Positions 1 to 5,176 of a stretch of DNA of 5,176 bases are shown piece by piece. Both the position numbers and the translations under genes were made by a program. Source of the DNA: a virus. Its lineage: Duplodnaviria > Heunggongvirae > Uroviricota > Caudoviricetes. Location of the stretch: the IMG/VR virus record IMGVR_UViG_2703718861_000008. One strand, given 5' to 3'. Under the pieces are notes generated by a model. The model made no database searches. It saw only the letters and a program-made list of their open reading frames with translations, and was not told where the DNA came from. The number at the start of each line of letters is the position of its first letter. Positions within the stretch are counted from its first letter, which is position 1.

Positions 1-272
1 GGTTCACCTTTATCCCCTTTCGGGCCGGTTTGCCCTGCCGGACCCTGTGGTCCGGGTGGTCCGGCCTCTCCACGTGGGCCGGTGTCACCTTTCGGCCCCG
101 GCGGTCCGCCCGGGTCACCTTTATCGCCCTTCGGTCCCTGTGGACCTGTTTCTCCCCGTTCTCCCTTTGGCCCCGGCTCACCTTTTGGTCCGACCGCCCC
201 CGTTGCCCCGGCTGGTCCCTGTGCCCCTGTGGCACCCTGTGGACCTGTGTCCCCCTTCTCGCCCGCCGGTCC
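1..272 (-). repeat. Collagen-like Gly-X-Y triplet repeat tract within stf (coding low-complexity repeat)
   Basis: Minus-strand translation from about residue 136 onward reads [90 protein letters not shown], i.e. about 30 consecutive G-X-Y triplets. At DNA level this is a GC-rich imperfect 9-nt periodicity (ggtcc / gggcc / ccgg motifs). The + strand complement produces the artefactual Pro/Gly-rich ORFs 30..692, 47..574 and 82..384. Confidence 0.75.
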
Positions 273-677
273 CCGGGCATTCTCTGCCCGTTTCTTCGCT
301 TCCTCTGCACTCGCCGCCGACGCTTCAGCACGCTTCAGGATTTCCGCTGCCACCGCTTCCAGCTCTGCAAGCGCTTTCGGGTAATACTGCGCCTCATCCT
401 GTTCCATCAGAAATTTATTCAGCGTTCCCGGCTCAGAATCCGCCTTCACCAGAATGTCACCCACATACGACGGGGCGTACCCTTCCGTGTTCAGCGTCAC
501 CCGGTACCACCCCGGCTCCACATCAAAACTGTAACTGCCGGTTTCCCCCGGCTGCCCCTGCGCCACCGTGGTGACTATCACTGTCTCTGTGGTGCGTCGC
601 GCTTTCAGCTCTATGGTGCATCCCGGCACCGGCTTCCCGGTGCCGTCCTTCAGCACGCCCGATATTCTGACTGTCAT
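1..677 (-). CDS. stf: Side tail fibre protein Stf homologue, N-terminal 225 codons (3' end of the gene lies beyond the left edge of the window)
   Basis: My manual minus-strand translation from the ATG at 677..675 gives [99 protein letters not shown]..., which matches the lambda Stf N-terminus as I recall it ([28 protein letters not shown]...DSQPGTLNDFL). It is followed by an alanine-rich predicted helical segment and then Gly-X-Y repeats. Shine-Dalgarno GGGAGA at 688..683, 5 nt before the ATG. The frame is open to position 1. The track does not list it because no stop falls inside the window. Confidence 0.85.
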
Positions 678-759
678 AGATTTCTCCCATAAAAAAAACC
701 GCAGTACCGGTTACCCGGTCTGCGATCAGGGGTATAAATTGTGACTGGCTGGTGTTAAA

Positions 760-783
760 GGGTGCCGTCAGTCAAAGGCACCC
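760..783 (-). other. GC-rich stem-loop in the J-stf intergenic region (weak terminator or RNA stability element)
   Basis: 7-bp inverted repeat GGGTGCC (760..766) / GGCACCC (777..783) with a 10-nt loop. On the minus strand it is followed by UUUAACACC, only three U residues, so it is at best a weak or leaky terminator between J and stf. Confidence 0.25.
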
Positions 784-861
784 GTGGATAATGTACGATG
801 TCCGGCTTTTGTCGTTTTCCGGCAATCACGAACAGATGGATGAAACCTCACTATCCACCTG

Positions 862-3800
862 TCACGATGCGGTATCAAAATCGTCTGTATAGGATTTCAG
901 GTAAAACAGAACCGGGTCATGGATCCGAATTTTACTCTTATCATGAAGTATTGAACCACCCATGTAAAAAAGCACATCTGCTTCATACCTGAATGTAATT
1001 TCAACCCGCACATCACCCTGTCCGGCAGGAATACTCCATGAGCCTGACGCATTTCCGCCAACATCAGAATATACCGGCTCATATCTGCTGGCGTTTTTGG
1101 AAATCTGGACCTCCCGCTCCCCGGTTTTGACTTTGCCTGACCTGGCATGAACGACAACTTTGTCATTTATCTTCATGATGAATTCACCTCTGGAAAATGA
1201 ATACGCCATAAGCATAAGCTTGCGATCAAACGGCATGTTGTCTTTCAGCAAAATCATTTTCTGAAAAGTCAGCTGGTTCTGAGTCATTACGCCCTGCCCC
1301 ATATCAACCGTGTATCCCTTGACGATATCACCAATGATTCGGTCAGCGCTCATCGTTCCATTAATGGTACAGTCTTCCGCAATCGTCACGTTATTCAGCG
1401 TACCGGAACTGGCACTGATATTCCCGCTGATATCGGCATTACGGGCCGTCAGCCTGCCGTCCGGCGTCAGGGAGAATGCCGGGGGATTGCCGCCGCTGGT
1501 AATGGTGGGGGCGGTAAGAACCTTTATCAGGGCCTCATTGATAAACGTCTGTCCCCCCTGCGTGACCAGTGCGGGTGTGGTATCACCATTCTCCGGATTA
1601 ATGAATGCCACACGGTCCGCTGCCAGCAGTATCTGGCTCTGCATCCCGTCAGGGGTGTTCTCAATACCGGCACCGATACCGGCAATATAGCGACGACCAT
1701 CCTGCATCTGCTGTAGCTTCACCGCCCACATGCTGTTCAGGTCATTATTTGTGTCCGTCTGCACACGCTGGATTTGCTGTATGGTGGCGTTCTGGTCCTC
1801 CAGCGTTTTACTGACCGTCTGCGTGATTTCATTGCGGGTTTCTGTGATGGTGGTCTGCATTTCCGCCATCTCGTCCTTCAGCTGACTGTTGTCAATCTCT
1901 GCCCACAGCGCCTCTGCCAGATGCGTTTTTCCTATCTTTTCCCGGAAAAGTTCCAGATAGCCCGCAGCATCATTGCTCGCCCGTCCACTGGCTTCAACAA
2001 ACGCGGATTTACCCACCAGATTGACGCTGCGCACGTAAAACCAGAAAACTTTCCCGGGTTTAATCTGGCTGCCGGAGACGCTCCACTGGCTGCCTGTCCC
2101 CAGATAACGGGCAGAGGTTTCCACCTGTGCGGCGTCTGCAATTTTTGCCTCCGAAAACCAGAACTCAAACTGCACCGTCGGGTCATAAATGGTCAGTTTC
2201 GGGACTGCCGTTATCTGAAAATACCCCGGCGTCAGTTCAACACCGGCAGGCGCTGCCGGTGCGTTAATCCGGAACGTGGTGGTGGCGGGTTCGCCCTGCT
2301 GGCCATAGCTGTTAATCGCCCTGACCGTCAGGGTGTATTCCCCGGGAGGCAGGCCACTGAAACGGTGCTCCGTATCGGCAGTGATGGCGGTGGTCAGCAG
2401 GCGGCTGTTCTCACCGCTTCCACTGGTCAGGCGCAGACTGAAGCGCACGCCCTTCACCACCCTCGGCGTGTCCCATTTCGCCAGCGCCAGATACTGGCTG
2501 TCAGCTGCGCTCACCTCCACCGTGAGGTGCTGTACTGCCGGTGGGATAACGCTGTTCAGGGTGCCTGACTGCGGCTCAAAGCGGGCCCCGTTATCCACGA
2601 TGGCTTCTTTTTCCGGTACGTGCTGCACCGCCGTAACGGCAAAGGTGCCGTCCGTGTTTTCCCGGATGGCCACACAGCGGAACAGGCGACGGCGCAGTGA
2701 CGGCAGGGAGAGTCCCCACACCCCGTATGTCTCCACACCATCAGGCAGGGTACTGACCTGTATCCGGTCCGGCGCGGGGTGTGCGGTGATGTCCACACTC
2801 ACCGGCTTACCGCTGCCGTTAATCAGGTTCACCGTCGATGCACCTGTCCCCGGAAGTGTCACTTCACGGTCCAGCGTCAGGGTGCGGGTGGCAGCATCAA
2901 TGGACAGGACACGTCCGCCGGTCAGGGTTCCGGCATAGTCGTTATCACAGATTTCAATGATGTCACCGGGTGTGTGCCGCAGCCCCTGAGACCCGAGTGT
3001 GAAATCCACCGTCTGCGTTTCCAGCAGTTCGGTCTTTATCACCCACAGCCCGGCACGGTGGGCCTGACCGCGGCTGGTACAGCCGAACGCGTCCATCTTC
3101 AGCAGGTTGCGTCCGTAGCGCAGTATGGCTTCCGGGTCTTCCACCAGTTCCGTGGAGGTCTGCCAGCCGTTCTGCGGGTCGGTGTAATTCACCTCCACCG
3201 CCGTGTGCCGGTCCTTCAGGGCACTGAAGCTGTAGCGGAACCCCACGCCGTTATCATCCACCACCACATCGCTGTTGGTGTACGGCCACACCACATCCGA
3301 CGGGCGGTCCTGAACGAACGTCAGCGTCTGGCCGTTCCATACCGGCATACAGCGCATCGCCGAGCAGAAATCACTGAGAACGTCCCACGCCTTACGCTGT
3401 TGTGCCAGGTACGCATTAAAGGTCATCCGCGGCTCGGTGCCCCCGAAGCCATCCGGCACCATCTGGTCGCAGTACTGCCCGATGGCATACAGCGCCCATT
3501 TGTCCACGTCTGCCGCCCCCAGGCGTTTTCCCATCCCGTAGCGCGGGTGAGTCAGCATGTCCCACAGGCACCAGGCCGGGTTATTGCTGTATGCCGGTTT
3601 CAGACTGCCGTCCCAGATACCACTGTACGTGCGTTTTTCCGGGTCATAGTTTGACGGCACCTGGATGATGCGACCGCGGATATGGTAGTTCACCGTCATC
3701 TGCTGGCCGCCGAACTGCTCCGCATCCACCTGCAGCCCCACAATGGCCGTGTTCGGGTAGCACTGTTTCACATCGATGATTTCGGTGTATGACGACCAGA

Positions 3801-4392
3801 GCGTCTTATTCTGCAGCTGGTCCGTGGTGCTGTCCGCCGTCTCCCTGACCATCCGGATGTTAAAGGGCCGGGGCGGCAGATTATCCAGAATCACCGACGC
3901 CAGGAACTGCGAGGTGGTCTTGCCGTTAATGGTGACATCCTTTTCTGTCACCCAGTTACCGTTACGCTGTAACTGAATCAGCAGACGGACAGAGGACGGA
4001 TTACGGTCACCCTTTGACGTGGTCTCCACCAGTGACTGCACCCCGAAGGTCACCCGCAGGCGGTCAATGTTCGCTGACGTGATGGTGCGTGTCACCGGTT
4101 TTGCCTTCGTCACTTCCACACCCAGTACAGTTTCAGCTCCGGAGGACTCAAAGCCTTCCGGTGGTGTCTGCTCCTGCTCCCCGGCACGCCAGACCGCTGT
4201 CACACCGTGTATCACGGGATTACCGTCCGTGTCCGTCAGCGGGGTTTTGTTCACCAGGATACTCTGCAGTCCCTTCACCGGACCTTCCACCGGTCCCTCA
4301 CCAATGGCATCAATCACACTCATCATCTGCGTGGATTTGAGATTGTCTTTCGCCTCGCGCGGTGTGTGCGCCTTGCCGCCGCCTTTGCCCAC
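862..4392 (-). CDS. J: Host specificity / tail tip fibre protein J homologue (~1176 aa), with a diverged C-terminal receptor-binding region
   Basis: The track ORF 862..4443 (1193 aa) matches lambda gpJ as I recall it along most of its length: VGKGGGKAHTPREAKDNLKSTQ versus lambda MGKGSSKGHTPREAKDNLKSTQ, plus long conserved blocks such as NKTLWSSYTEIIDVKQCYPNTA, AWCLWDMLTHPRYGMGKRLGAADVDKWALY, LTAPTITSGGNPPAFSLTPDG. I place the start at the GTG at 4392..4390, which aligns with the lambda initiator Met and has a purine-rich Shine-Dalgarno (AAGGGGGA) a few nt upstream. The track's TTG at 4443 lies inside the U-tract of a terminator-like hairpin and would add 17 residues with no lambda counterpart. 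Stop TGA at 864..862. Confidence 0.93.
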   Translation of the reverse strand: MGKGGGKAHTPREAKDNLKSTQMMSVIDAIGEGPVEGPVKGLQSILVNKTPLTDTDGNPVIHGVTAVWRAGEQEQTPPEGFESSGAETVLGVEVTKAKPVTRTITSANIDRLRVTFGVQSLVETTSKGDRNPSSVRLLIQLQRNGNWVTEKDVTINGKTTSQFLASVILDNLPPRPFNIRMVRETADSTTDQLQNKTLWSSYTEIIDVKQCYPNTAIVGLQVDAEQFGGQQMTVNYHIRGRIIQVPSNYDPEKRTYSGIWDGSLKPAYSNNPAWCLWDMLTHPRYGMGKRLGAADVDKWALYAIGQYCDQMVPDGFGGTEPRMTFNAYLAQQRKAWDVLSDFCSAMRCMPVWNGQTLTFVQDRPSDVVWPYTNSDVVVDDNGVGFRYSFSALKDRHTAVEVNYTDPQNGWQTSTELVEDPEAILRYGRNLLKMDAFGCTSRGQAHRAGLWVIKTELLETQTVDFTLGSQGLRHTPGDIIEICDNDYAGTLTGGRVLSIDAATRTLTLDREVTLPGTGASTVNLINGSGKPVSVDITAHPAPDRIQVSTLPDGVETYGVWGLSLPSLRRRLFRCVAIRENTDGTFAVTAVQHVPEKEAIVDNGARFEPQSGTLNSVIPPAVQHLTVEVSAADSQYLALAKWDTPRVVKGVRFSLRLTSGSGENSRLLTTAITADTEHRFSGLPPGEYTLTVRAINSYGQQGEPATTTFRINAPAAPAGVELTPGYFQITAVPKLTIYDPTVQFEFWFSEAKIADAAQVETSARYLGTGSQWSVSGSQIKPGKVFWFYVRSVNLVGKSAFVEASGRASNDAAGYLELFREKIGKTHLAEALWAEIDNSQLKDEMAEMQTTITETRNEITQTVSKTLEDQNATIQQIQRVQTDTNNDLNSMWAVKLQQMQDGRRYIAGIGAGIENTPDGMQSQILLAADRVAFINPENGDTTPALVTQGGQTFINEALIKVLTAPTITSGGNPPAFSLTPDGRLTARNADISGNISASSGTLNNVTIAEDCTINGTMSADRIIGDIVKGYTVDMGQGVMTQNQLTFQKMILLKDNMPFDRKLMLMAYSFSRGEFIMKINDKVVVHARSGKVKTGEREVQISKNASRYEPVYSDVGGNASGSWSIPAGQGDVRVEITFRYEADVLFYMGGSILHDKSKIRIHDPVLFYLKSYTDDFDTAS

Positions 4393-4430
4393 GGAATCCC
4401 CCTTCACCGTCCGCTGCCGGACACTGTTGA

Positions 4431-4465
4431 TGTATAAAAACAACAGGCACCCCGGAGAGTGCCTG
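4431..4465 (-). terminator. Rho-independent terminator-like hairpin, minus strand orientation, about 40 nt upstream of the J start
   Basis: Perfect 7-bp inverted repeat CAGGCAC (4444..4450) / GTGCCTG (4459..4465) with an 8-nt loop. Read on the minus strand it is followed by UUGUUUUUAUAC (complement of 4443..4432). On the + strand the flanks are A-rich upstream and non-T-rich downstream, so it is minus-oriented. Confidence 0.55.
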
Positions 4466-4503
4466 CATCATGACGGAATAAAAATTCTGAATATCTTCAC
4501 ATT

Positions 4504-4531
4504 TTCACAAACTGACTGTGGCGCTGATAAT
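4504..4531 (+). promoter_or_regulatory. Candidate sigma70-type promoter on the + strand inside the I-J intergenic insert
   Basis: -35-like TTCACA at 4504..4509 (5/6 to TTGACA; a second TTCACA copy at 4496..4501), 16-bp spacer, -10-like GATAAT at 4526..4531 (5/6 to TATAAT) preceded by TG. Predicted start near 4538, about 105 nt upstream of the + strand terminator T-tract. Consensus-matching only; no experimental support. Confidence 0.3.
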
Positions 4532-4537
4532 TTCGCT

Positions 4538-4642
4538 GCGTTAGTGTTTTTTTTGCCGTGACATAAAAAAAAACAACTCCTTAACACTAATCTTCATTTG
4601 TCTGAATCTCCCGCAGCTCCGCGATCACTGCGGGATTTTTTT
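4538..4642 (+). ncRNA. Hypothetical small RNA (~105 nt) transcribed antisense to the tail operon from the I-J intergenic insert
   Basis: Inferred only from the candidate promoter (4504..4531) plus the + strand intrinsic terminator (4610..4642). No + strand ORF longer than a few codons lies in this interval. The predicted transcript contains an A/U-only hairpin (U8 ... A9), a CA-rich single-stranded stretch (AACAACUCCUUAACACUAAUC) and the terminator stem. Ends are approximate. Confidence 0.25.
4610..4642 (+). terminator. Rho-independent terminator-like hairpin, + strand orientation
   Basis: Perfect 7-bp inverted repeat CCCGCAG (4610..4616) / CTGCGGG (4628..4634) with an 11-nt loop, followed on the + strand by A then TTTTTTT (4636..4642) and further T-rich sequence. 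In the minus orientation the stem is followed by AGAUUCAGAC, which is not U-rich, so this element is oriented to stop + strand (antisense to the tail genes) transcription, not to terminate gene I. Confidence 0.6.
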
Positions 4643-4649
4643 ATTCTTT

Positions 4650-5176
4650 TTACCCCTGCCGTCCGATAACCACGACCTTTCCGCCCCCGCCTTCATCACG
4701 GGTACTGATGTCCTGGGATATACGGCGGGAGCCAACCAGCATTTCCCCGTAAGGCACCGGCATCGGGTTCCCCTGGGCAATCATGTTATCCAGCGAGGAA
4801 AAGTACGTGTTCTGTCTGCCGTTATCCGTTGCCCTGTATTCCGGTGTTTTGGGCTTCGGGGCCAGCATCTGAGCCACACCACCCAGTATCATGCTGGCAC
4901 CCAGTGAGAACAGCATCGTGGTGGCAGTCAGCCCTCCGGCACTCAGGGCTGCGCCCCACAACGCCATCGTTGCACCGGCGGTGAAGAAAGAGCCCACAAT
5001 GGCTGCTGCCCCCAGCACCACCTGAAAAACACCATTTCCCCCGGCCCCTGCCAGCCGCGGTACAATATGAATCACGGCCCTCCCGCTCAGCGGTTCATGA
5101 AGACGGGCATACACCGCCTCCGGCGCGGTATCCTCACCGGCAATACGTATCTGGTACCAGCCTTCGTTCATCTGAC
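4650..5176 (-). CDS. I: Tail assembly protein I homologue, C-terminal part (5' end of the gene lies beyond the right edge of the window)
   Basis: Track ORF 4650..5171 translates to ...GWYQIRIAGEDT...VIHIVPRLAGAGGNGVFQVVLGAAAIVGSFFTAGATMALWGAA...NGRQNTYFSSLDNMIAQGNPMPVPYGEMLVGSRRISQDISTRDEGGGGKVVVIGRQG, which matches my recollection of the lambda gpI C-terminal two thirds (GWYQVRIAG...VIHIVPRVAGAKSGGVFQIVLGAAAIAGSFFTAGAT...NGKQNTYFSSLDNMVAQGNVLPVLYGEMRVGSRVVSQEISTADEGDGGQVVVIGR). The reading frame stays open to position 5176, so the true start is outside the window; the Met at 5171 is internal. Stop TAA at 4652..4650. Confidence 0.9.
   Translation of the reverse strand, partial: QMNEGWYQIRIAGEDTAPEAVYARLHEPLSGRAVIHIVPRLAGAGGNGVFQVVLGAAAIVGSFFTAGATMALWGAALSAGGLTATTMLFSLGASMILGGVAQMLAPKPKTPEYRATDNGRQNTYFSSLDNMIAQGNPMPVPYGEMLVGSRRISQDISTRDEGGGGKVVVIGRQG

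What the first reader, a model, noticed from the sequence alone, without database searches (positions are those of the whole stretch)
4393..4649. Moron-like ~257 bp insert between tail genes I and J, bracketed by two opposite-facing terminators
As I recall, I and J are essentially contiguous in lambda. Here the I stop (4650) and the J start (4392) are separated by about 257 bp of AT-rich non-coding DNA. It carries a minus-oriented intrinsic terminator (4431..4465) just upstream of J, a plus-oriented intrinsic terminator (4610..4642) just downstream of the I stop, and a sigma70-like + strand promoter (4504..4531) between them. Because each terminator sits at the far end of the insert relative to its own direction, the central ~140 bp could be transcribed on both strands, an arrangement typical of autonomous small transcription units (morons) and of cis-antisense RNA pairs. 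Read-through by antiterminated late transcription would still allow J expression. This is the best candidate in the window for an undescribed accessory function, for example a phage-encoded regulatory sRNA.
Basis: partly seen in the sequence, partly recalled or inferred. Interest (0 to 1): 0.72.

Follow-up and report, generated by a model that had tools for sequence, protein, structure and literature searches.

The report
Known prophage small RNA gene PasB
The gap between tail genes I and J holds the gene for PasB, an already described Hfq-dependent regulatory small RNA of E. coli prophages, plus a conserved terminator hairpin in front of J, so the finding is real but not new.

Summary
Gene I stops at 4650 and J starts (GTG) at 4392, leaving a 257-bp spacer with 43% GC. 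It has an intrinsic terminator at each end and a sigma70 promoter between them.

The + strand unit is the known sRNA PasB. It runs from the promoter at 4504-4531 to the terminator at 4609-4642, antisense to the tail genes. The published PasB northern probe matches the window 23/23 at 4615-4637. In EPEC E2348/69, PasB is an 83-nt, Hfq-stabilised RNA at this same I-J position.

The EHEC Sakai sRNAs EcOnc22/23/24 are the diverged homologues in the I-J spacers of Sp15, Sp14 and Sp11. EcOnc22 gave a ~85-nt band that is lost without hfq. Lambda has only a 60-bp spacer.

About 57% of J-bearing phage records and about 30% of complete E. coli genomes carry the module. It is a widespread sRNA "moron", not an undescribed element. 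I found no evidence for a cis-antisense pair or a small protein.

The - strand hairpin (4443-4466 plus a U-tract) is a separate, conserved sense-strand RNA hairpin upstream of J.

The apparently new details are minor. A CRP-like box sits at a fixed distance from the -10 hexamer. Tandem arrays of up to four PasB-like cassettes occur in some prophages.

The parts
4650..5176 (-). 3' part of tail assembly gene I; stop TAA at 4652..4650; the gene runs off the window end
   Evidence: ORF list. Homologous loci are annotated as tail assembly protein I.
4554..4642 (+). PasB sRNA, mature form, mapped from the 83-nt E2348/69 PasB. Starts at the last U of a U-run or the following G (UGCC...) and ends at the last U of U7. 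89 nt in this window.
   Evidence: Table S6 of PMC8550237 gives the PasB coordinates and probe. The probe matches 23/23 at 4615..4637 on the - strand. Alignment to E2348/69 and Sakai. 77/89 identical to PasB and 65/89 to EcOnc22.
4538..4553 (+). Predicted 5' leader of the primary transcript if P1 fires at G4538 (GCGUUAGUGUUUUUUU). It is absent from the observed 83-85-nt RNA, so it is either processed off or never transcribed (second promoter with -10 TAGTGT at 4542-4547).
   Evidence: Inference from the -10 position against the published 5' end and the 5' ends of CLASH reads. GCGTTA and a TAnnnT hexamer are kept in the variants read by eye; no explicit count was made.
4504..4531 (+). sigma70 promoter P1 of PasB: -35 TTCACA (4504-4509), 16-bp spacer, -10 GATAAT (4526-4531)
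   Evidence: Scan, 10/12 matches. In 94 of 103 unique homologues a -10-like hexamer (TATAAT 30, AATAAT 25, TATCAT 24, CATAAT 9, GATAAT 5, GATAAA 1) sits at the same fixed position.
4483..4504 (.). CRP-like box AAATGTGA-AGATAT-TCAGAATT (core TGTGA-N6-TCAGA at 4486-4501); candidate regulator site of the PasB promoter
   Evidence: Only match in the window, 0.04 expected. Half-sites kept in 103/109 unique homologues, with 8 different N6 spacers and a fixed 24-bp gap to the -10. Binding was not tested.
4609..4642 (+). PasB intrinsic terminator: stem UCCCGCAG/CUGCGGGA, 11-nt loop, U7; its 3' end lies 7 nt from the I stop codon
   Evidence: The stem is invariant in 22 of 22 aligned variants except one cell, while the loop varies.
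4574..4600 (+). Conserved single-stranded region of PasB: AACUCCUU (anti-Shine-Dalgarno-like) ... UAAUCUUCAU. Candidate seed, preceded by an A-rich (ARN)n stretch at 4565-4577.
   Evidence: Column conservation over 54 unique spacers. The mature form is predicted to be unstructured here. Zhu et al. propose the seed just upstream of the terminator. ARN count.
4434..4466 (-). Sense-strand (tail-mRNA) hairpin GCAGGCACUC-UCCG-GGGUGCCUGU followed by UGUUUUUAU. Terminator-like element in the J leader.
   Evidence: -18.7 kcal/mol, z = -3.9. Across unique homologues one pair goes C-G to U-A (13) via U.G (6); the U.G intermediate pairs only in the sense strand. Present only in the J-proximal unit of tandem arrays.
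4467..4482 (.). Conserved block TCATGACGGAATAAAA (+ strand) between the hairpin and the box. GAATAAAAAT recurs upstream of every cassette's box; TCATGAC goes with the hairpin. Function unknown.
862..4392 (-). Tail tip / host specificity gene J; GTG start at 4392, SD GAAGGGGGA at 4397-4405
   Evidence: Annotated gpJ in homologous loci.

Best explanation
The 257-bp I-J spacer of this lambdoid (Stx-phage-type) E. coli prophage carries the gene for the known sRNA PasB. PasB is transcribed antisense to the tail genes from its own sigma70 promoter (-10 at 4526-4531). It ends at its own intrinsic terminator (4609-4642), directly beside the I stop codon.

The mature RNA is about 89 nt here (4554-4642). 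It has an A-rich (ARN)n stretch, a conserved unstructured CU-rich seed (AACUCCUU...UAAUCUUCAU) and a terminator hairpin with a U7 tail, which is the usual Hfq-binding design.

Shown in homologues: the RNA is made from the silent prophage, needs Hfq for stability, and forms Hfq-mediated chimeras with many core and accessory mRNAs. Inferred for this window: it acts in trans by seed pairing with mRNAs.

The second hairpin (4443-4466 plus U-tract) is a separate element in the sense strand. It is a conserved terminator-like RNA hairpin about 40 nt upstream of the J start. My inference is that it stops RNA polymerase that has not been modified by the late antiterminator Q, or stabilises the upstream mRNA, while Q-modified late transcription reads through to J.
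For: Identity with PasB:
- The PasB northern probe AATCCCGCAGTGATCGCGGAGCT (Table S6 of PMC8550237) matches the window 23/23 at 4615..4637 on the - strand, so the RNA is on the + strand.
- PasB maps to NC_011601 1466343..1466261 on the - strand, between I (ends 1466255) and J (starts 1466496), both on the + strand. This is the same position and orientation as here.
- Identity to PasB is 77/89.

Published behaviour of PasB:
- 83 nt.
- log2FC -6.8 and -2.4 in delta-hfq.
- 37 RIL-seq interactions.
- baseMean 482-1082, against 5-15 for I and J.

EHEC homologues:
- CLASH reads of EcOnc22/23/24 (GCCTGAAAAATAACTCCATAACGTTAATCTTCA) lie on the + strand inside the Sp15 I-J spacer. Table S2 places EcOnc23 in Sp14 and EcOnc24 in Sp11, at the matching offset in each I-J spacer.
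- EcOnc22 gave a ~85-nt northern band that is destabilised in delta-hfq; EcOnc23 and EcOnc24 are listed as its homologues without their own northern entries.

Conservation:
- Terminator stem, U-tract, UAAUCUU and AACUCC are invariant or nearly so in 54 unique spacers and 38 unique PasB variants.
- A -10-like hexamer is at a fixed position in 94/103 unique homologues.

Insertion status:
- Lambda's spacer is 60 bp.
- 147 of 256 J-bearing phage records carry the long spacer.
- 1634 of 5426 E. coli genomes carry it.

Sense hairpin:
- z = -3.9.
- One compensatory pair, with a U.G intermediate that pairs only in the sense strand.
Against: - No expression data exist for this exact variant. It differs from E2348/69 PasB at 12 of 89 aligned positions, including small insertions.
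- The -10 consensus predicts a start at about G4538, 17 nt upstream of the published 5' end. The promoter assignment or a processing step is therefore unresolved.
- No consensus structure beyond the terminator is supported.
- No validated target of PasB is published in the papers I could read. The EcOnc22-24 CLASH hybrids I could read rest on 1-2 reads, with FDR 0.04-0.34.
- The function of the sense hairpin is inferred only. Lambda's analogous hairpin is not called a terminator by the same scan.
Confidence: 0.9

Rival explanations
1. The spacer encodes two sRNAs. Besides PasB, a roughly 60-nt sense-strand RNA would start near 4494 and end at the - strand terminator (about 4434). It would come from a weak promoter overlapping P1 back to back: TTATCA, 18 bp, TGTGAAAAT (extended -10 at 4509-4501). 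This is the closest version of the reader's two-strand idea. The transcripts would diverge rather than overlap.
For: The terminator-like hairpin faces the right way. The 25 nt before it (UUCAGAAUUUUUAUUCCGUCAUGA) are highly conserved. The window has an 8/12 promoter with a TGn extended -10 (read). The hairpin's U.G intermediate shows it acts as sense-strand RNA.
Against: The promoter is below the scan threshold. Its -10 is the flank of the CRP-like box, so its conservation is not independent evidence, and it is degenerate in the Sakai type (GGAAAT). No sense-strand Hfq peak is listed at the I-J spacers among the 63 sites of Tree et al.. No RIL-seq partner with the I or J locus tags was found in the stored tables, which were cut when stored. 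In tandem arrays the hairpin occurs only next to J, not with each cassette.
Confidence: 0.1
2. PasB works mainly in cis. It is perfectly complementary to the I-J junction of the late polycistronic mRNA. Its gene and promoter also face oncoming late transcription. It could therefore trigger cleavage of the late mRNA between I and J, or interfere with transcription into J, tuning tail-tip production or keeping J silent in lysogens.
For: Full antisense complementarity follows from the gene's position. The gene is always kept at this one position between I and J.
Against: PasB covers neither the I coding end (7 nt away) nor the J ribosome site (about 150 nt away). The RNA is abundant when late genes are silent and forms many Hfq chimeras with unlinked mRNAs. 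Seeds diverge between cassettes, which suggests diversification of trans targets.
Confidence: 0.12
3. The spacer encodes a small protein on the sense strand. Hypothetical proteins are annotated there in phages PhiR12_1 and 1720a-02. The window has an 18-codon ATG ORF and a 39-codon GTG ORF ending at TCATGA.
For: CDS features are annotated in two phage records. AAGGAG and ATG motifs are present on the sense strand. Some variants have a 38-41-codon ORF, MKINV...FIPS*.
Against: The ORF is not conserved. Its length ranges from 18 to 57 codons across 54 unique spacers, and 28 of them leave only a 10-codon GTG ORF. The ATG is missing in about 40%. Homopolymer length changes shift the frame. In the most conserved stretch the only substitutions are radical non-synonymous ones (I/S/N/K), with no synonymous change.
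Confidence: 0.03
4. The spacer is a non-functional recombination scar, and the hairpins and promoter are chance matches.
For: Terminator- and promoter-like patterns are common in the window (14 and 4 sites).
Against: Expression and Hfq dependence are shown for two homologues. Conservation is selective: terminator, seed, -10 and box stay fixed while neighbouring sequence diverges.
Confidence: 0.01

Closest known systems
PasB (pathogenicity-associated sRNA B) of EPEC O127:H6 E2348/69 prophage PP6 (Pearl Mizrahi et al., Sci Adv 2021, PMC8550237; Zhu, Shabalina and Storz, bioRxiv 2026)
   Same: Same locus (between tail genes I and J) and same antisense orientation. The terminator and northern-probe sequence are identical, and overall identity is 77/89. 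Same promoter layout. PasB is described as embedded in an operon of phage structural genes, with its seed proposed just upstream of the terminator.
   Different: This window's variant has small insertions (89 against 83 nt), a longer U-run and A-run, and GATAAT instead of TATAAT at the -10. Its expression has not been measured.
EcOnc22 / EcOnc23 / EcOnc24 of EHEC O157:H7 Sakai prophages Sp15, Sp14 and Sp11 (Tree et al., Mol Cell 2014; Waters et al., EMBO J 2017)
   Same: Same I-J spacer, same strand, same terminator stem, U-tract and UAAUCUUCA motif. EcOnc22 gave a ~85-nt RNA that is destabilised without Hfq.
   Different: Only 65/89 identical to the window's RNA, with a shorter and different 5' half (CCAUAACGUU). 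Targets are listed as unknown in the 2021 review. The two PasB papers I read do not make the link between PasB and EcOnc22-24.
Phage lambda I-J junction
   Same: Same flanking genes. A GC-rich hairpin followed by a U-rich stretch also precedes J.
   Different: The spacer is only 60 bp. It has no PasB cassette, no promoter and no CRP-like box. The hairpin sequence is unrelated, and the scan does not call it a terminator.
Other prophage sRNAs of EHEC and EPEC: AgvB, AsxR, StxS, HnrS (EcOnc10-12), Esr41, PasA/C/D, STnc100
   Same: Hfq-binding sRNAs carried by lambdoid prophages as autonomous units and expressed in lysogens.
   Different: They sit at other loci (the PR' moron site, lysis or late region, SpLE1) and have other sequences. 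Rfam models for AgvB, AsxR, Esr41 and STnc100 give no hit in the window at E <= 1, though they do hit their own Sakai locus. HnrS shares only a short AAUCUUC string.
Morons of lambdoid phages (Juhala et al. 2000): autonomous promoter-gene-terminator units inserted between conserved phage genes
   Same: Own promoter and own terminator. Inserted between two genes that lie close together in lambda. Expressed from the repressed prophage.
   Different: The cargo is a non-coding RNA, transcribed against the direction of the surrounding operon.

Membership tests
PasB sRNA | Sequence homology to E2348/69 PasB, including the published northern-probe site | tested here: met
   Probe matches 23/23 at 4615..4637 on the - strand. 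77/89 identical over the mature RNA.
PasB sRNA | Located between tail genes I and J of a lambdoid prophage, antisense to them | tested here: met
   Window: I stop 4650, J start 4392, RNA on the + strand. E2348/69 has the same arrangement.
PasB sRNA | 3' stem-loop followed by poly-U (intrinsic terminator and Hfq site) | tested here: met
   Stem 4609-4635 plus U7 at 4636-4642. The stem is invariant across variants.
PasB sRNA | Expressed as an ~83-nt RNA whose stability depends on Hfq | not testable with these tools
   Shown for E2348/69 and for the Sakai homologue EcOnc22, not for this variant.
EcOnc22/23/24 | Same RNA as the Hfq-CRAC and CLASH reads in the Sakai I-J spacers | tested here: met
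   The read sequence lies at L013 1353..1385 on the + strand, inside the Sp15 spacer. It aligns to window 4555-4597. This is a homologue, not an identical sequence (65/89).
Rfam prophage sRNA families (AgvB RF02702, AsxR RF02703, Esr41 RF02676, STnc100 RF02076, others) | Match to the family covariance model | tested here: not met
   0 matches at E <= 1 in the whole window. Positive control: AgvB and STnc100 are found in their own Sakai locus.
Moron (autonomous unit inserted in a phage operon) | Own promoter and terminator; absent from related phages; expressed while flanking late genes are silent | tested here: met
   Promoter and terminator. Absent from lambda. Expression contrast shown in E2348/69 only.
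Cis-antisense RNA pair / overlapping convergent transcription | Promoters on both strands giving overlapping transcripts | tested here: not met
   No - strand promoter passes the scan in the spacer. The best candidate would give a divergent, non-overlapping RNA. No sense-strand Hfq peak or RIL-seq partner was found.
CRP-dependent promoter | TGTGA-N6-TCACA box | tested here: met
   TGTGA-AGATAT-TCAGA, 9 of 10 core positions. Unique in the window, 0.04 expected. Half-sites conserved while N6 varies.
CRP-dependent promoter | Box centred at -41.5 (class II) or -61.5/-71.5 (class I) from the start site | tested here: inconclusive
   Centre is at 4493.5. That is -44.5 from the start predicted from the -10 (G4538). 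It is -61.5 from the observed 5' end (G4555) in this window, but 57.5-61.5 in other variants because the T-run length varies.
CRP-dependent promoter | Transcription depends on cAMP-CRP | not testable with these tools
   Only indirect evidence. PasB is higher in the condition where the CRP-repressed sRNA Spf is about 5-fold lower.
Small protein gene | Reading frame, start codon and length conserved among homologues | tested here: not met
   ORF length ranges from 18 to 57 codons, and 28 of 54 unique spacers leave only a 10-codon GTG ORF.

The most novel reading that the evidence does not exclude
PasB would be one member of a modular cassette family, not a single gene. Each cassette of about 220 bp would contain:
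- an A/T-rich stretch;
- a CRP-like box held exactly 24 bp from the -10 hexamer;
- a hypervariable body and seed;
- an invariant Hfq-type terminator.

The cassette would be switched on by cAMP-CRP, that is, off in glucose-rich, virulence-inducing conditions. It would mature by removal of a 17-nt leader or by use of a second promoter. It can be multiplied in tandem, up to four cassettes with different seeds between I and J in 79 of 5426 complete E. coli genomes. Prophages would thereby gain a diversifying battery of nutrient-controlled sRNAs, followed by a sense-strand terminator that gates entry into J.
Probability: 0.3. Interest if true: 0.45.

Novelty: already known. Interest (0 to 1): 0.22.

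Why it matters
As submitted, the finding rediscovers a published sRNA, so its main value is as a correct call from raw sequence. The follow-up adds four small but useful points:
- The EPEC name (PasB) and the EHEC names (EcOnc22/23/24) refer to one family at one locus, a link the PasB papers I read do not make.
- The family is absent from Rfam 15, so automated annotation leaves the spacer blank or invents small ORFs.
- A testable regulatory hypothesis (a CRP-like box at a fixed distance from the -10) could explain why PasB behaves opposite to the other Pas sRNAs across growth conditions.
- Tandem multi-cassette arrays exist that BLAST-based surveys appear to have missed.

None of this changes current understanding of phage or sRNA biology.

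Tried and rejected
- Rfam search of the whole window at E <= 1 gave nothing. This is uninformative, because PasB/EcOnc22 has no Rfam family.
- Identity with AgvB, AsxR or STnc100 was rejected. They lie at the PR' moron site and have different sequences.
- Identity with HnrS (EcOnc10-12) was rejected. It is a different locus and a different 66-nt RNA.
- Reading the Table S2 coordinates of EcOnc22 directly on NC_002695.2 put the peak on the wrong half of the spacer. Anchors showed a shift of about +135 between versions .1 and .2: AgvB, StxS and its terminator tR', and the CLASH read string.
- A conserved 5' stem-loop in the primary transcript is not supported. RNAalifold keeps only the terminator. 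A hand-specified helix has 1 pair with a double change and is no better than shuffles. Single-sequence folds differ between variants.
- A sense-strand small protein was rejected.
- Evidence for a sense-strand sRNA was sought and not found. The other Sakai Hfq peaks I checked (EcOnc35, EcOnc54) lie elsewhere.
- The GTDB species-representative scan found the conserved block only in two tiny contigs of unrelated genera, which is probably contamination. It gives no taxonomic breadth.
- The EcOnc22/23 CLASH hybrids with yjbJ (ECs5028) rest on 1-2 reads at FDR 0.1-0.3, too weak to name a target.
Full report
**1. The observation**

All genes in the window lie on the - strand. The I frame ends with TAA at 4652..4650. 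J begins with GTG at 4392 (MGKGGGKAHTPREAKDNL) behind the SD GAAGGGGGA at 4397-4405. The spacer 4393..4649 is 257 bp. Its GC is 43%, and 34% in the core, against 57-60% in J and I.

The pattern scan reports three signals:
- a - strand terminator: stem 4466..4443, 10 pairs, then a U-tract;
- a + strand terminator: stem 4618..4634, extendable to 4609-4635, then T7 at 4636-4642;
- a + strand promoter: TTCACA-16-GATAAT at 4504..4531.

Pattern counts alone are not significant: 14 terminator-like sites against 4.8 expected. The two hairpins do fold far better than shuffles, with z = -3.9 and -3.4, and both are conserved in homologues (below). One correction: lambda's I and J are 60 bp apart, not contiguous.

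**2. Distribution**

The spacer is not private to this window. Homologues at 73-99% identity occur in 147 phage records, mostly Stx1- and Stx2-converting phages, VT1-Sakai, BP-4795 and the PhiR12 phages. They also occur in 1634 of 5426 complete E. coli genomes.

The 5' end of J itself is found in 256 phage records. About 57% of these J-bearing lambdoid phages therefore carry the long spacer. The phages with J about 75% identical (the lambda, 434 and HK629 type) appear to be the ones without it. I confirmed the short 60-bp spacer only in lambda itself.

A scan of one genome per bacterial species found the conserved block only in two tiny contigs from unrelated genera, probably contamination.

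**3. Identity of the + strand unit**

Rfam gives no hit anywhere in the window. The literature does.

*PasB.* Table S6 of Pearl Mizrahi et al. 2021 lists PasB at NC_011601 1466343..1466261 on the - strand. It is 83 nt, in prophage PP6, between E2348C_1436 and E2348C_1437, with northern probe AATCCCGCAGTGATCGCGGAGCT. That probe matches the window 23/23 at 4615..4637 on the - strand, so the RNA is on the + strand. In E2348/69 the two flanking genes are I (ends 1466255) and J (starts 1466496), both on the + strand, with PasB antisense between them. Mapped onto the window, PasB runs from T4554/G4555 to T4642. That is 89 nt, 77 of them identical.

PasB was validated by northern blot. It falls 100-fold in delta-hfq (log2FC -6.8) and has 37 RIL-seq interactions. 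Its baseMean is 482-1082, while I and J read 5-15. Zhu, Shabalina and Storz (2026 preprint) found 1158 PasB hits. They describe the gene as embedded in an operon of phage structural genes and place the likely seed just upstream of the terminator.

*EcOnc22/23/24.* Tree et al. 2014 list EcOnc22 (Sp15), with homologues EcOnc23 (Sp14) and EcOnc24 (Sp11), as Hfq-CRAC peaks on the + strand. EcOnc22 gave a ~85-nt northern band that is destabilised in delta-hfq. Their coordinates refer to NC_002695.1. Three anchors show a shift of about +135 to NC_002695.2:
- AgvB;
- StxS and its terminator tR';
- the CLASH read GCCTGAAAAATAACTCCATAACGTTAATCTTCA, given at 2902717 and found at 2902852.

With the shift, the peaks fall on the + strand inside the I-J spacers of Sp15, Sp14 and Sp11, whose tail genes are on the - strand. 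EcOnc22 is 65/89 identical to the window's RNA. A 2021 review lists its targets as unknown. Neither PasB paper links PasB to EcOnc22-24.

**4. Anatomy of the family**

I collected 54 unique spacers and 38 unique PasB variants from phage records, E. coli genomes and IMG/VR contigs.

Invariant or nearly invariant features:
- the terminator stem CCCGCAG/CUGCGGG, with a variable loop;
- the U-tract;
- UAAUCUU(C);
- AACUCC.

The 5' half is hypervariable in sequence and length. Beyond the terminator, no consensus structure is supported. The mature form is predicted to be open over its first 50 nt or so. It carries 3-5 consecutive A-R-N triplets. This is the standard layout of an Hfq-dependent trans-acting sRNA. 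That it acts in trans is shown only by the RIL-seq and CLASH chimeras of the homologues. No target has been validated.

**5. Promoter**

I anchored on the PasB terminator, which is independent of promoter sequence. Of 103 unique homologues, 94 have a -10-like hexamer at one fixed position: TATAAT 30, AATAAT 25, TATCAT 24, CATAAT 9, GATAAT 5, GATAAA 1. The window has GATAAT.

This predicts a start near G4538, 17 nt upstream of the published 5' end. The three EcOnc22-24 CLASH reads shown begin at that same G. Two readings remain open:
- a leader (GCGUUAGUGU7-8) is processed off;
- a second promoter is used. A TAnnnT hexamer (TAGTGT, 4542-4547) lies 7-8 nt before the observed end in the variants I read by eye; no explicit count was made.

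Only 5'-end mapping can decide between them.

**6. A CRP-like box**

Exactly 24 bp upstream of the -10 lies TGTGA-AGATAT-TCAGA (4486-4501). It is the only such match in the window, with 0.04 expected. In 103 of 109 unique terminator-anchored sequences both half-sites are intact, while the central six bases take eight different forms. That pattern fits a dimeric regulator site.

The box matches the CRP core at 9 of 10 positions. Its centre is at -44.5 from the start predicted from the -10, which is not a canonical position. It is -61.5 from G4555 in this window, which is canonical class I. That distance drifts from 57.5 to 61.5 in other variants, because the T-run length varies.

There is indirect support. 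[quoted passage not shown] That Spf is repressed by CRP is established knowledge, not something I tested. The box remains a hypothesis, and neither PasB paper discusses a promoter.

**7. The - strand hairpin**

GCAGGCACUC-UCCG-GGGUGCCUGU followed by UGUUUUUAU folds at -18.7 kcal/mol. Among unique homologues, one stem pair is C-G in most, U-A in 13 and U.G in 6. The wobble intermediate pairs only in the sense strand. The element therefore works as RNA in the tail-gene transcript, not in PasB's strand.

It is not part of the PasB cassette. In prophages with several cassettes it occurs once, next to J. Lambda has an unrelated GC-rich hairpin at the same place, although the simple scan does not call it a terminator.

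My inference is that it stops polymerase not modified by the late antiterminator Q before J, or protects the 3' end of the upstream message, while Q-modified late transcription reads through. I looked for a sense-strand sRNA ending there and found none:
- no promoter passes the scan;
- no Hfq peak is listed there;
- no RIL-seq partner with the I or J locus tags was found.

**8. Small ORFs**

Two phage records annotate hypothetical proteins in the spacer. The frame ending at TCATGA ranges from 18 to 57 codons among 54 unique spacers, and 28 of them leave only a 10-codon GTG ORF. The upstream ATG is missing in about 40%. The only substitutions in the conserved stretch are radical amino-acid changes, with no synonymous ones. 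A protein product is rejected.

**9. Seen outside the window**

Nine of 115 related loci carry two to four PasB-like cassettes in tandem between I and J. In L097, four cassettes of 195-232 bp each have the box, the 24-bp gap, a -10, a different body and seed, a terminator, and a copy of about 60 nt of the I 3' end. The full 963-bp array is present in 79 of 5426 complete E. coli genomes, such as O91:H21 and O104:H21 STEC. It is in no phage record. The 2026 survey reports a minimum distance of 28 kb between pasB copies, so these diverged tandem copies seem to have escaped it.

**10. Verdict**

The element is already known as PasB and as EcOnc22-24. The two-strand, cis-antisense idea is unsupported. 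The remaining open points are the true 5' end, the CRP-like box, the role of the J-leader hairpin and the tandem arrays. These are modest extensions of a known kind.

Noticed in passing
window 4483-4504 (core 4486-4501): CRP-like box TGTGA-N6-TCAGA exactly 24 bp upstream of the PasB -10. The half-sites are invariant and the central six bases variable in about 100 unique homologues. The PasB papers I read do not mention it.
   Followed up: partly
L097 10066-11028 (IMGVR_UViG_2537562188_000008); also NZ_CP027368.1 1304942-1305904: Four tandem PasB-like cassettes with different seeds between I and J, each with a copy of the I 3' end. The full array is in 79 of 5426 complete E. coli genomes and in no phage record. 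Two- and three-cassette versions also exist.
   Followed up: partly
window 4538-4555: The start site predicted from the -10 hexamer (G4538) lies 17 nt upstream of the published PasB 5' end and of the CLASH read 5' ends (U/GCC). This implies either leader processing or a second promoter (-10 TAGTGT at 4542-4547).
   Followed up: partly
window 4547-4554 and 4565-4573: The T-run (6-9 T) and the A-run differ in length between otherwise near-identical spacers. For example, the window has T8 and A9 where strain PM4-5 has T7 and A7. This homopolymer polymorphism sits inside or just before the sRNA.
   Followed up: no
NC_002695.1 versus NC_002695.2 (Sakai chromosome): The EcOnc coordinates in Tree et al. 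2014 and Waters et al. 2017 are offset by about +135 bp from the current RefSeq version between 1.94 and 2.93 Mb. Read naively, they place the peaks on the wrong features.
   Followed up: yes
PMC8550237 Table S6 and bioRxiv 10.64898/2026.05.13.724894: Table S6 notes EHEC homologues for PasA and PasD but none for PasB, and the 2026 survey does not mention EcOnc. Yet PasB and EcOnc22/23/24 occupy the same I-J spacer and share the terminator and the UAAUCUUCA motif.
   Followed up: yes
window 1-861: The sequence downstream of the J stop (862) matches a prophage tail fiber N-terminal domain gene, and no lom feature is listed under the match. The closest spacer homologue, strain PM4-5 (L001), has an Ail/Lom family gene after J.
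   Followed up: partly
L001 7625-9637 and L194 (Sakai Sp6, NC_002695.2 1576553-1578208): Related prophages carry a second insert between tail genes L and K: an antirepressor-like gene, an Arc-family regulator and, in L001, a ClpP-like protease. After the +135 shift, the Sakai Hfq peak EcOnc54 falls in that insert.
   Followed up: no
L019 (Asaia platycodi NZ_BAKW01000035.1, 546 bp) and L020 (Parendozoicomonas haliclonae NZ_FWPT01000051.1, 460 bp): These were the only species-representative genomes with the conserved spacer block. Both hits are tiny contigs from unrelated bacteria, most likely E. coli prophage contamination of those assemblies.
   Followed up: no
L004 3062-3160 (PhiR12_1) and L005 2129-2281 (1720a-02): Hypothetical-protein CDSs are annotated inside the I-J spacer of these phage records. 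They overlap the PasB gene on the opposite strand, and the frame is not conserved, so they are probably annotation artefacts.
   Followed up: yes
window 4493-4499 and 4590-4596: The heptamer ATCTTCA occurs twice on the + strand: once inside the CRP-like box and once as the core of the conserved PasB seed. I cannot tell whether this is chance.
   Followed up: no
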